Origin: an uncultured delta proteobacterium
Lineage (GTDB): Bacteria > Myxococcota_A > UBA9160 > SMWR01
DNA length: 64,000 nt
Assembly: GCA_963832165.1 (NCBI GenBank)
Contig: CAWHTE010000007.1
Coordinates: 384,001-448,000 of the forward strand
Direction of reading: 5' to 3'
Shown here: positions 11,312-54,563 of the stretch, piece by piece
Layout of the letters: each line of letters starts with the position of its first letter
How positions within the stretch are numbered: position 1 is the first letter of the stretch
Program-made: the position numbers and the translations under genes
Notes under the pieces: model-generated
Seen by the model: the letters and a program-made list of their open reading frames with translations, nothing else
Database searches by the model: none
Told to the model about the DNA's origin: nothing

Positions 11312-12280
11312 GTGCCCAGTCTCAAGGACATCAAGCGCCGCATCACGAGCGTGCGCAAGACCCAGCAGATCACCCGCGCGATGCGGATGGTCGCCGGGGC
11401 GAAGCTGCGCCGCGCGCAGGACGCGATCGAGAGGGCGCGTCCGTACGCGGAGCGCATGCGCGCGACGCTCGCCGAAGTGGCGCGCGCCCAGACCGACAGC
11501 GATCACCCGCTGCTCGTGACGCATCCCGAGGTCCGCAACGTCGAGCTGCTCGTGGTCACGTCCGACCGCGGGCTGTGCGGCGCTTTCAACGCCAACGTGA
11601 ACAAGCTCGCGGCCTCGGTGGGCCGCGCCAGGCAGCAGGCCGGTGCGACGGTCTGGATCTCCACGGCCGGCAAGAAGGCGCGCGAGGCGTTCCAGCGCCG
11701 CGTGCCCGAATCGCTGCGCGAGCACTATCCCCAGGTGAGCTGGGTGACGTTCGCTCAGGCGACCTCGATCGCGAGATACCTCTCCCAGCGCTACGCCTCG
11801 GGCGAAGTCGACGAGGTGGTGCTCGTGTACAGCGAGTTCGTCTCGGCGGTCACGCAGACGCCGCGCGCCGTGACGCTCCTGCCGTTCGCGGCCGGAGTCG
11901 AAGAGGCGCAAGCTTCGCGCAGCGAGCAAGGCCGCGAAGCGGCCGCGCAGCGAGGCGAAGCCGAGCGGAGCGTGGGCTCCCGCAAAGGTGGGAAGGCGAG
12001 CGAAGGCCATAAGGATGGCGAGGCGCTCGCCTACGAGATCGAGCCCGATCCCGCCAAGCTGCTCAACGTGCTCGTGCCCAAGGCGATCGAGGTGGAGGTG
12101 TTCCGCGCGCTGCTCGAGAACCAGTCGGGCGAGCACGCGGCGCGCATGGCCGCGATGGAAGCGGCCACGCGCAACACCGAGGAATTGATCGACGCTCTCA
12201 CGCTGCAGTACAACCGCGCCCGGCAGGCTGCGATTACCAAGGAACTCGTGGAGATCGTGAGCGGCGCCGAAGCGCTCTGA
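11312..12280 (+). CDS. atpG: ATP synthase subunit gamma, carrying a ~37-aa repeat-derived insertion
   Basis: KITRAM-like start (QITRAMRMV), [24 protein letters not shown]. Confidence 0.97.
11908..12018 (+). repeat. Nested pair of hairpin repeats inside atpG (outer A-type copy split by an inner B-type copy at 11926-11991)
   Basis: GCAAGCTTCGCGCAGCGA | GCAAGGCCGCGAAGCGGCCGCGCAGCGAGGCGAAGCCGAGCGGAG...AAGGTGG | GAAGGCGAGCGAAGGCCAT. Confidence 0.85.
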
Positions 12281-12297
12281 GTCTCGAGGAAGGCAAC

Positions 12298-13719
12298 ATG
12301 AAGTCAGGTCGGATCGTTCAGGTGATGGGACCCGTGGTCGACGTGGAGTTTCCGCCCGGTGAGCTGCCCGCGATCTACACCGCGCTGCGCGTGACCAACA
12401 CGGGCATCGACGAGCGCGAGGACAACCTCGTCCTCGAGGTCGCGCAGCACCTCGGCGAGAACACCGTGCGCACGATCGCGATGGACACCACCGACGGGCT
12501 CATGCGCGGTCAGGACGTGCGCAACAGCGGCGACGTGATCCGCGTGCCCGTGGGCGAGGCCACGCTGGGCCGGATCATGAACGTGATCGGCGAGCCCGTC
12601 GACGAGAAGGGCCCGATCAGCTCGACGGCCACGTACCCGATCCACCGCGCAGCGCCCGAGTTCGTCGACCAGTCGACGAGCGTCGAGGCGTTCGAGACCG
12701 GGATCAAGGTGGTCGATCTGATCGCGCCCTATCCGAAGGGCGGCAAGGTCGGTCTGTTCGGTGGTGCCGGCGTCGGCAAGACCGTCGTGATCCTCGAGCT
12801 GATCACGAACATCGCCAAGGAGCACGCGGGCTACTCCGTGTTCGGTGGCGTGGGCGAGCGCACGCGCGAGGGCAACGACCTCTGGCACGAGATGGCCGAC
12901 GCGAAGACGCCCGACGGCAAGACCGTGCTCGACAAGACGGCGCTCGTGTTCGGCCAGATGAACGAGCCGCCCGGCGCGCGCGCGCGCGTGGGCCTCTCCG
13001 CGCTCACGGTGGCCGAGTACTTCCGCGACGAAGAGGGCAAGGACGTGCTGCTCTTCATCGACAACATCTTCCGCTTCACGCAGGCGGGCTCGGAAGTGTC
13101 GGCGCTGCTCGGCCGGATTCCCTCCGCAGTGGGCTATCAGCCGACGCTGTCGACGGACATGGGCGAGCTCCAGGAGCGCATCACCTCCACCACGAAGGGC
13201 TCGATCACGTCGGTGCAGGCGATCTACGTGCCCGCCGACGACCTGACCGACCCCGCGCCCGCCACCGCGTTCACCCACCTCGACGCAACGACCGTGCTCT
13301 CGCGGCGGATCTCCGAGCTCGGCATCTACCCGGCGGTGGACCCGCTCGACTCGACCAGCCGCATCCTCGACCCGCAGATCGTCGGTGAGGAGCACTATCA
13401 GGTCGCGCGCGGCGTGCAGCAGACGCTGCAGAAGTACAAGGACCTCCAGGACATCATCGCGATCCTCGGAATGGACGAGCTCTCCGAAGAGGACAAGATC
13501 ACCGTCTCGCGCGCGCGCAAGCTCGAGCGCTTCTTCTCGCAGCCGTTCCACGTGGCCGAGCAGTTCACGGGCACGCCCGGCGCGTACGTTCGGCTCGAGG
13601 ACACGATCCGCGGCTTCAAGGAAGTGCTCGAGGGCAAGCACGACGACCTGCCCGAGCAGGCGTTCTACATGGTCGGCACGATCGAGGACGCGATCGCGAA
13701 GGCGAAGAAGCTGGCCTGA
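12298..13719 (+). CDS. atpD: ATP synthase subunit beta
   Basis: [22 protein letters not shown]. Confidence 0.98.
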
Positions 13720-14123
13720 TGCCGATCGATCTCACGATCGTGACGCCGTCGGGGCCCGCCTATCGCGGCGACGTCGACTCGGTGGTCCTGCCCGGCAGCG
13801 AGGGCGACTTCGGCGTGCTGCCCGGGCACGAGCGCTTCCTGACCGCGCTGCGCCCGGGCGAGATCCAGATCAAGACGGGCAACCAGACGATCTACGCCGC
13901 GTCGTCGCCGGGCTTCGCGGACGTCTCGGGCGAGCAGGTGACCGTGCTCGTCGACGCGTGCGAGCTCGCGGCCGACATCGATCCGGCGCGCGCCGAGCAG
14001 GCGCGCCAGCGCGCGGAGCAGGACCTGGCCGGATCCGGCAGCTCCGACCCCGCGCGCGCCGCGGAGCTCCAGGCGGCGCTCGAACGCGCGAACAATCGCA
14101 TCGCGGTGAGCCAGCGGAAGTAG
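13719..14123 (+). CDS. atpC: ATP synthase subunit epsilon
   Basis: IVTP, PGSEGDFGVLPGH, C-terminal helical hairpin. Confidence 0.96.
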   Translation: MPIDLTIVTPSGPAYRGDVDSVVLPGSEGDFGVLPGHERFLTALRPGEIQIKTGNQTIYAASSPGFADVSGEQVTVLVDACELAADIDPARAEQARQRAEQDLAGSGSSDPARAAELQAALERANNRIAVSQRK

Positions 14124-53589: not shown

Positions 53590-53591
53590 CG

Positions 53592-54473
53592 ATGCCGCTC
53601 CGCCATTTCGGACCGCGACAATGGGTGCGCGACGAGCGCGAGCGGCTCGCCGCGCTGCGCTTCGAGCGGATCGGCGTCGCGCCGCTCGGCGCCACGGTCG
53701 GCGCCGAGATCAGCGGGGTCGACCTCGGCCATCTCGATGAATCAACCTTCGCCGAGATCGAGCGCGCGTTCTACGCCTTCAAGGTGATCTTCTTCCGCGA
53801 CCAGGACATCACGACCGAGGACCACCTCGCGTTCGCGAAGCGCTTCGGCGAGCTCGAGGAGCACCCGTTCATCCCCGCGAAGAAGGGCTACGAGCAGATC
53901 GTCCGGTTCTCGAAGAACGAGCGCGTAATCGGCGTCGAGAACATCTGGCACCACGACGTCACCTGGCGGTTGCGCCCGTCGCTCGGCTCGGTGCTGCGCG
54001 CGGTCGACGTGCCCGCACTTGGCGGCGACACGCTGTTCGCGGACATGTGCGCGGCGTATGAGGGCCTCGCTCCCGACGTCCAGCAGAAGGTCGACGGCGC
54101 GGTCGCCGTGCACGACTTCTCGAACACGTTCGGCCTCATGATGACGCCCGAGAAGCTGGCCGAGCAGCGCGAGAAGTTCCCGCCCGCGCGCCATCCCGTG
54201 GTGCGGACCCACCCGCAGACCGGCCGCAAATGCCTCTACGTGAACGTCGCATTCACGAGCCACATCGAGGGCATGGCGACCGACGAGAGCCGCGCGCTGC
54301 TCGAACACCTCTACCGCCAGGCCGACGTGCCCGAGTACCAGTGCCGCTTCCGCTGGCAGAAGAACAGCCTCGCGTTCTGGGACAACTGCGCGGTCCAACA
54401 CTACGCCGCGTCGGACTACGATCCGCAAGTGCGCGTGATGGAGCGCGTGACCATCATCGGGCAGCCCGTTTGA
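53592..54473 (+). CDS. TauD/TfdA-family Fe(II)/2-oxoglutarate dioxygenase
   Basis: [30 protein letters not shown]...QH. Confidence 0.92.
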
Positions 54474-54563
54474 CTTCGCTCGGGCCCGCCTGCTGGTCTT
54501 CGCTCGCCTTCGGCTCGCTGCGCGAAACTTGCAGCTCGCTGCGCGCGCCCTTTGGGCGCTTGC
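54474..54563 (-). repeat. Nested pair of hairpin repeats (outer B-type copy split by an inner A-type copy at 54486-54532)
   Basis: Reverse complement = GCAAGCGCCCAAAGGGCGCGCGCAGCGAGCT | GCAAGTTTCGCGCAGCGAGCCGAAGGCGAGCGAAGACCAGCAGGCGG | GCCCGAGCGAAG. Confidence 0.85.

What the first reader, a model, noticed from the sequence alone, without database searches (positions are those of the whole stretch)
11908..54563. Elements insert into one another at the same core position (two reciprocal nested copies)
Seen: in atpG an A-type copy (GCAAGCTTCGCGCAGCGA...GAAGGCGAGCGAAGGCCAT) is interrupted right after CGCAGCGA(GC) by a complete B-type copy (11926-11991). At 54474-54563(-) a B-type copy is interrupted right after CGCAGCGAGC(T) by a complete A-type copy. 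The copies at 14373 and 19176 are also both preceded by the same GCGCGCAGT, which resembles the core. Inference: integration is sequence- or structure-targeted at the element's own core, as expected for a site-specific or guide-like mechanism rather than random slippage.
Basis: partly seen in the sequence, partly recalled or inferred. Interest (0 to 1): 0.85.

Follow-up and report, generated by a model that had tools for sequence, protein, structure and literature searches.

The report
Tiny DNA repeat inserting into itself
A roughly 50-letter DNA repeat, present in about 190 copies in this bacterium, keeps landing inside older copies of itself at a few fixed positions, which offers a handle on how such tiny repeats spread, although the enzyme that moves it was not found.

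Summary
Both nested copies are real. They belong to a family of about 190 short repeats (GCAAG tag, variable hairpin, 24-nt core with GNA-loop hairpins, variable tail), patchily spread over this class of bacteria. An unbiased scan found nests with both host halves in 22 of 173 tagged copies here, 19 of 130 in a congener and 8 of 145 in metagenome loci. Breakpoints cluster at core +9/+10 (type A inserts) or +7 (type B2, the atpG case): close, but not the same position. All are parallel to the host. Host head and tail match across the insert; orthologues show host-alone versus nested, and one nest is shared by two species, so slippage and chimeras are unlikely. Insertions replace about 5 target bases, leave no duplication, and carry a hypervariable tail. 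Ordinary targets share neither sequence nor hairpin with the core, so targeting is a hotspot preference, not a fixed site. No mobiliser was found: RAYT/Y1, reverse transcriptase, Ku, GIY-YIG and DUF559 do not flank or track it. Verdict: a REP/RPE/MIRU-like repeat, new variant, with position-specific self-targeting; enzyme unknown.

The parts
11312..12280 (+). atpG (ATP synthase gamma) carrying the nest in frame in a variable loop (57 aa between LLP and YEIEP versus 20-28 aa in 24 relatives)
   Evidence: PF00231 E 2.5e-94; loop comparison; translation
11908..11925 (+). left half of host type-A element (GCAAG tag, head, core to +7)
11926..11991 (+). complete inserted type-B2 element (head hairpin GGCCGC-GAA-GCGGCC, core 11947-11970, 21-nt tail)
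11992..12017 (+). right half of the host type-A element (core +10 onward, A-type tail)
54535..54563 (-). left half of host type-B element, antisense between tauD-like and monooxygenase genes
54486..54534 (-). two junction bases (CT) plus complete inserted type-A element (47 nt)
54474..54485 (-). right half of the host type-B core; its tail runs into the tauD-like stop codon
19155..19175 (+). degenerate host remnant (head of a subtype common in relatives), right half missing
19176..19222 (+). type-A element inserted in that remnant, just before the radA-like start codon; site empty in 4 relatives shown
14373..14443 (+). type-C element in frame in a gene without Pfam match; net +69 nt versus G004
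16016..16080 (-). type-C element between two minus-strand genes; net +70 nt versus G004
19565..19611 (+). type-A element in frame after the Walker A helix of the radA-like gene; net +45 to +48 nt versus relatives; G002 has an antisense copy in the same loop
21767..21827 (+). type-B element right after the stop codon of the polyprenyl synthase gene; G003 has a different subtype at the same site
44803..44849 (-). type-A element, antisense, at a gene junction
53517..53585 (+). type-B element in the 3' end of a cytochrome P450 gene

Best explanation
A non-autonomous, REP-like mobile repeat whose top strand folds as single-stranded DNA (GNA-loop hairpins). It is copied into new sites by a cut-and-fill process that removes about 5 target bases, makes no duplication and re-makes the junction bases each time (2 variable bases at the 5' side, a hypervariable 12-nt tail). 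Resident copies are preferred targets: whatever recognises the element's fold also opens an existing copy at a few set positions (mostly the 5' arm and loop of the GCC-GNA-GGC hairpin), on the same strand, with the exact site set by the incoming subtype. SHOWN: mobility (filled/empty sites), true nesting, position, strand and subtype specificity, target loss, stem covariation. INFERRED: single-stranded DNA intermediate and a structure-recognising nuclease acting in trans. NOT FOUND: the enzyme. Where copies survive (sense strand, protein loops, gene junctions) is probably shaped largely by selection.
For: Nests with both halves: G000 22 of 173 (+5:1, +7:1, +9:10, +10:10), fetched part of G004 19 of 130 (+7:5, +9:10, +10:4; 2 of the +9 rows continue into tandem arrays), metagenome loci 8 of 145 (+3:1, +7:2, +9:4, +10:1). 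All 8 +7 cases are B2-type inserts. The +8..+11 junction recurs in 17 of 193 genomes of the order, each genome using its own recurring insert head. Host tail follows host head, not the insert: 12 of 13 non-A-labelled hosts have non-A tails (the 13th is a mis-parsed A head), 9 of 10 A hosts have A tails. Orthologues: host alone in G000 versus nested in G004 at two loci; one nest shared. No opposite-strand core pair within 200 nt; 2 cores with an opposite-strand half motif; 3 nests are antisense to their operon yet parallel to the host. Net gain 39-45 nt in 21 of 27 filled/empty pairs for a 47-49-nt unit; 41-45 in nests. Core stem covaries in 279 of 283, loop GNA in 268 of 283, 38 of 41 distinct heads have a stem of 4 bp or more. 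Inner copies differ from consensus by 0.42 of 35 nt but their tails by 4.7 of 12 nt, 18 of 19 distinct.
Against: [quoted passage not shown] Ordinary targets show no hairpin (permutation p 0.82, n=61; stems 2.96 versus 2.92, n=75) and only weak C| and |G bias. Standard folding gives z near 0 (-1.1 to 0.7). No leading/lagging bias (42:33 versus genes 950:773; 116 of 191 unassigned), unlike known replication-coupled HUH transposons. Filled/empty pairs are about 85% identical, so junction sizes are approximate.
Confidence: 0.5

Rival explanations
1. Homing by gene conversion: a few nests arose once, and host recombination then copied the inner element into other copies using the 10-14 nt of shared sequence on each side; no targeting enzyme is needed for the fixed positions.
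For: Explains parallel orientation, fixed positions and genome-specific junction spellings (for example CCC in all 16 G009 junctions). Collapsed left-only and right-only forms and subtype swaps at orthologous sites show recombination among copies. Inner copies are more alike than solitary ones (p 0.003 and 0.03).
Against: Inner tails are as diverse as solitary tails (4.71 versus 4.97; 18 of 19 and 11 of 11 distinct), B2 junction bases vary (TC, CC, GC, GA), the greater likeness lies mostly in head and core (younger copies), and homology arms are very short.
Confidence: 0.22
2. RNA-templated insertion: a structured transcript is copied into nicked DNA by target-primed synthesis, giving sense bias, a purine-rich variable tail and GC microhomology at the 3' junction.
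For: Sense 122 versus antisense 26, independent of replichore (26:7 and 21:6); purine-rich tails, A-runs in low-copy genomes; host resumes at G, mostly GC.
Against: No reverse transcriptase in G000 nor in 13 of 19 element-rich genomes (my tally); GNA triloops are a DNA-type fold (recalled); antisense nests follow the host strand, not transcription; sense bias can come from selection.
Confidence: 0.15
3. Survival bias only: insertion is random, and copies inside older copies or protein loops are simply the harmless ones.
For: Recurrent hits of the same tolerant sites in different genomes (atpG loop in G031; radA loop in G002, site 21767 in G003); 10 of 33 nests lie in divergent intergenic regions.
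Against: Cannot explain a 4-nt window holding 24 of 33 nests, 25 of 33 nests being non-coding, subtype-specific sites or strict parallel orientation.
Confidence: 0.07
4. Replication slippage or assembly chimera creates the nested pattern.
For: Tandem arrays with a 42-nt period exist; A-in-A nests could be read as two partial duplications; source reads were not available.
Against: Head-tail concordance of non-A hosts, host-alone versus nested orthologues and a nest shared by two assemblies, 17 genomes with their own insert type, open frame in atpG.
Confidence: 0.04

Closest known systems
GTAG-tagged REPs / REPINs with RAYT (PMC3733652, PMC3116915)
   Same: [quoted passage not shown]
   Different: Tag is GCAAG; several small GNA-loop hairpins; singlets, not inverted doublets; sense-oriented and often coding rather than convergent-intergenic; no flanking RAYT; position-specific nesting. 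A separate true GTAG REP with its RAYT lives in the same genome.
Rickettsia palindromic elements (RPE) (review PMC10969869)
   Same: Frequent in-frame insertion in housekeeping proteins; mobiliser not established.
   Different: About 50-100 nt rather than about 150 nt; different tag; self-targeting not mentioned in the passages seen.
Mycobacterial interspersed repetitive units (MIRU) (PMC12548453, PMC3184786)
   Same: 40-100 nt, dozens of copies, at gene junctions in operons, tandem arrays.
   Different: MIRUs are described with tetranucleotide direct repeats and insertion at start codons; here target bases are lost and many copies are mid-gene.
Cyanobacterial small dispersed repeats (SDR; Elhai 2008, not held, recalled)
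   Same: Very small mobile repeats with compensatory structure and no known enzyme (recalled).
   Different: Could not be compared: paper not available; it may already describe similar nesting.
IS1397, IS621, IS1594 targeting REPs (PMC3184786)
   Same: Insertion at a defined position of a hairpin repeat.
   Different: Those are autonomous IS elements with transposases hitting another family; here a 50-nt non-coding unit hits itself.

Membership tests
GTAG or CGTC REP | terminal GTAG or CGTC tetranucleotide | tested here: not met
   158 of 191 start with exact GCAAG; GCAAG has 0 occurrences in the main text of PMC3733652
GTAG or CGTC REP | short palindromic stem next to the tag, high copy number | tested here: met
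   38 of 41 distinct long heads have a stem of 4 bp or more; core stem covaries 279 of 283; 195 cores. Type A (11-nt head) lacks the head hairpin
REP/REPIN-RAYT system | RAYT gene flanked by the repeat | tested here: not met
   0 of 12 Y1 genes in G000 have a core within 1.3 kb; 8 of 30 Y1 loci in rich genomes have one on one side only; Y1 not found in 9 of 19 rich genomes
REPIN | inverted doublets as the unit | tested here: not met
   0 opposite-strand core pairs within 200 nt among 186
MITE (DDE-mobilised) | terminal inverted repeats and target-site duplication | tested here: not met
   net gain below unit length in filled/empty pairs and nests; end logos show no inverted repeat
IS200/IS605-type non-autonomous element | precise insertion 3' of a fixed 4-5 nt target, no loss (recalled), lagging-strand bias | tested here: not met
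   flank information at most 0.32 bits; about 5 nt lost; 42:33 lead:lag with weak replichore assignment
RPE-like intragenic repeats | frequent in-frame coding insertion | tested here: met
   63 of 186 inside called genes in sense, by my own gene caller; atpG and radA-like cases
MIRU | tetranucleotide direct repeat and ORF coupled at start codons | tested here: inconclusive
   no duplication seen; junction placement is common (stop codon within 9 nt upstream in 40 of 183 versus 7.8% random); coupling not counted
Any Rfam family | covariance model match | tested here: not met
   window 11000-22500, only a mir-500 chance hit at 23.8 bits versus 78 needed
Any mobile element | transposition shown by experiment | not testable with these tools
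   only filled/empty comparison

The most novel reading that the evidence does not exclude
An undescribed mobility pathway: a 50-nt single-stranded DNA structure that chooses its own insertion point in resident copies through its own sequence (subtype sets the site), replaces about 5 target bases, rewrites its tail at each jump, and is moved by a core host enzyme or an unrecognised nuclease family rather than by RAYT, reverse transcriptase, DDE transposase or Ku-dependent joining.
Probability: 0.2. Interest if true: 0.88.

Novelty: new variant of a known kind. Interest (0 to 1): 0.64.

Why it matters
How short bacterial repeats without a dedicated transposase (CGTC REPs, RPEs, MIRUs, SDRs) spread is an open question. 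Because the target of a nested insertion is a known sequence, these nests read out the junction chemistry directly (site, strand, about 5 nt lost, variable ends) in dozens of independent events, and an existing copy can serve as a defined trap in an assay. The family also adds 13-34 residue loops to core enzymes such as ATP synthase gamma.

Tried and rejected
Hairpin targets at ordinary sites: not supported. GC of the tag as a target-derived or duplicated dinucleotide: identity to empty sites only 0.49 and 0.34. Mobiliser searches: Y1_Tnp 12 in G000, one flanked by a different (GTAG) REP; Y1 in 10 of 19 rich versus 3 of 22 poor genomes by my tally, a partial association among related genomes; the local Y1 subfamily in 8 of 41, including element-free G015; RT 13 of 41, none in G000; Ku 17 of 41, not found in G009, G014, G017; one GIY-YIG in a 625-aa frame, probably UvrC by my reading; DUF559 0 of 5. 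Neighbours of 20 clustered loci (60 proteins), 104 of 209 neighbours of metagenome copies (short ones only) and 14 genes flanked on both sides in G000 show no recurring nuclease or transposase. No match in plasmids or GenBank phages; 2 IMG/VR loci, one phage type. Sequencing runs: no holder above 0.11 of words, no RNA holder listed; laying 4 runs gave no contig bridging a junction. Folding z-scores near 0. Earlier findings: nothing. Literature searches found no description of this family; the library lacks most subscription papers, supplements were not read, and Elhai 2008 was not held. One search hits are not counted as independent.

Full report
Observation. Both nests are in the sequence as described. 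In atpG (PF00231) a type-A host (11908-11925, resuming 11992) is split by a complete 66-nt element (11926-11991); the frame stays open and the loop is 57 aa against 20-28 aa in 24 relatives, with a 37-aa loop in G031, which holds its own single copy there. At 54563-54474(-) a type-B host is split by CT plus a 47-nt type-A element. The window is G000:C7:384001-448000 of a 5.5-Mb, 70% GC assembly; records with the same nest junction are titled Myxococcota MAGs, with one titled Alphaproteobacteria.

Family. The core GCAGCGAG[CG]CG[AG]AG[GC]CGAGCG[AG]AG occurs 176 times at up to 2 mismatches and 195 times at up to 3. Each copy is a GCAAG tag (exact in 158 of 191), a head (11 nt in type A, a variable hairpin in types B, B2, C; labels are mine), the core and a tail. 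The core stem is GCC..GGC or GGC..GCC in 279 of 283 and the loop GNA in 268 of 283; 38 of 41 distinct long heads have a stem of 4 bp or more. GNA triloops are known as unusually stable in DNA (recalled), which suggests a single-stranded DNA fold; ViennaRNA does not show unusual stability. The exact core is in 26 of 41 relatives with 0 to 294 copies, in 36 of 78 genomes of the class and 3 of 323 outside it (my tally). No Rfam match.

Nesting is real and position-specific. 35 of 183 5' flanks match element sequence against 4 of 400 random sites. A scan that allowed a break anywhere in the core found both host halves around 22 of 173 tagged copies in G000 (+5:1, +7:1, +9:10, +10:10) and 19 of 130 in the fetched part of G004 (+7:5, +9:10, +10:4; two +9 rows run on into tandem arrays), and 8 of 145 in metagenome loci (+3:1, +7:2, +9:4, +10:1). 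That scan needs both halves and under-counts breaks in heads and tails; by hand G000 has 33 nests, 24 at +7..+10, 4 at about +5, 3 in head loops, 1 in a tail loop, 1 unclear. With an estimated footprint of 1% of intergenic DNA, 33 of 191 is far above chance (p 8e-30), though survival bias inflates this number; the position clustering does not depend on it. All 8 cases at +7 are B2 inserts and resume at +10; A inserts break at +9/+10 and resume at +13/+14. A position-biased pattern finds the junction in 17 of 193 genomes of the order, each with its own recurring insert head. No opposite-strand core pairs were seen, and 3 nests antisense to their operon, the window's second among them, are still parallel to the host.

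Not slippage or chimera. The tail after the insert matches the host head: 12 of 13 non-A-labelled hosts have non-A tails (the exception is a mis-parsed A head) and 9 of 10 A hosts have A tails (23 nests parsed). At two orthologous loci G000 has the host alone and G004 the nest; one nest is shared by both assemblies; other loci show left-only or right-only collapse products. Raw reads of the source were not found, so the read-level test was not run.

Junction chemistry. In nests about 5 host bases are replaced, with two variable bases before GCAAG; net gain is 41-45 nt in G000. Ordinary type-A insertions behave alike: net 39-45 nt in 21 of 27 filled/empty pairs (median 42; six outliers from -15 to 57), and identity to the empty site drops from about 0.8 to 0.46-0.51 in the last 3 nt before the tag (n=35). 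There is no duplication, no inverted ends, and flank information is at most 0.32 bits on the 5' side. Ordinary targets are not hairpins. Inner copies are young (0.42 changes in 35 nt) but their 12-nt tails differ by 4.7 nt, 18 of 19 distinct, so the tail is probably diversified at insertion (inference). The genomes compared are about 85% identical, so these sizes are approximate.

Placement. By my own gene caller, 122 copies are sense and 26 antisense, 63 lie inside genes in sense, while the unrelated GTAG REP of the same genome is mostly convergent-intergenic (32 of 59). No replichore bias was seen, with weak assignment. A stop codon lies within 9 nt upstream in 40 of 183 against 7.8% at random. 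The same tolerant sites are hit in different species, so selection shapes much of this.

Mobiliser. None found. One RAYT is flanked by the GTAG REP; none of the 12 Y1 genes is flanked by this element. Y1, the local Y1 subfamily, Ku and RT are each not found in several element-rich genomes of 90% or higher completeness, although Y1 shows a partial association (10 of 19 versus 3 of 22, my tally; kin are not independent). DUF559 0 of 5. Neighbour scans gave ordinary genes.

Mechanism. Best (0.5): structure-recognising, strand-specific cut-and-fill insertion with resident copies as preferred targets and subtype-set sites. Rivals: conversion homing from nested donors (0.22), RNA-templated insertion (0.15), survival bias only (0.07), slippage or chimera (0.04).

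Known systems. It works like REP, RPE and MIRU repeats but fails the defining tests of GTAG/CGTC REPs, REPINs, MITEs and IS200/IS605-type elements. Papers seen: PMC3733652 (abstract, part 1 of 8, passages), PMC3116915 (passages; it notes REPINs inserting into or next to REPINs), PMC6006769 (passages), PMC10969869 (passages on RPE), PMC12548453 and PMC3184786 (passages on MIRU and on IS elements targeting REPs), PMC4478555 (passages). Elhai 2008 on cyanobacterial SDRs was not held and may describe related behaviour. Nine searches did not find this family; no supplements were read.

Verdict. Observation confirmed and extended; interpretation partly supported. New variant of a known kind; interest 0.64.

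Noticed in passing
L100:4500-5030 (G000:C1 about 560.5-561.0 kb): Four 114-120 bp tandem units behind a tRNA-like gene (read by eye as Arg-TCG); each unit is a tRNA 3' fragment split at the T-loop by a hairpin insert related to the core. The nest at C8:7744 also lies between duplicated tRNA-like 3' ends.
   Followed up: no
G000 C1:102477, C2:485363, C3:3415, C3:44062, C3:96625, C5:330641, C6:7737, C11:63085, C11:137213, C11:229913, C11:918011: Eleven diverged Y1/HUH genes of about 235 aa, many with GAGGGAAG-type flanking repeats rather than REPs; subfamily in 8 of 41 relatives with 6-22 matches each.
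   Followed up: partly
L032 (G000:C4:533959-537273); window 46986(-): A classical GTAG REP family (about 55-100 copies) with its own RAYT; it carries the same GCC-GAA-GGC mini-hairpin as the GCAAG element. One copy lies in the window.
   Followed up: partly
window 25097-31102: Ten 276-bp repeats in what looks like a multi-HAMP histidine kinase; the reading frame appears split in several pieces, possibly assembly indels.
   Followed up: no
L003, L254 (atpG of G031, G020): Two of three copies in G031 and one of three in G020 lie in or just after atpG: the ATP synthase operon is a recurrent site.
   Followed up: partly
L079, L080: Two related viral contigs carry the core in an intergenic hairpin-rich stretch.
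   Followed up: no
L045: The nest junction occurs once in a record titled Alphaproteobacteria MAG: transfer or binning error.
   Followed up: no
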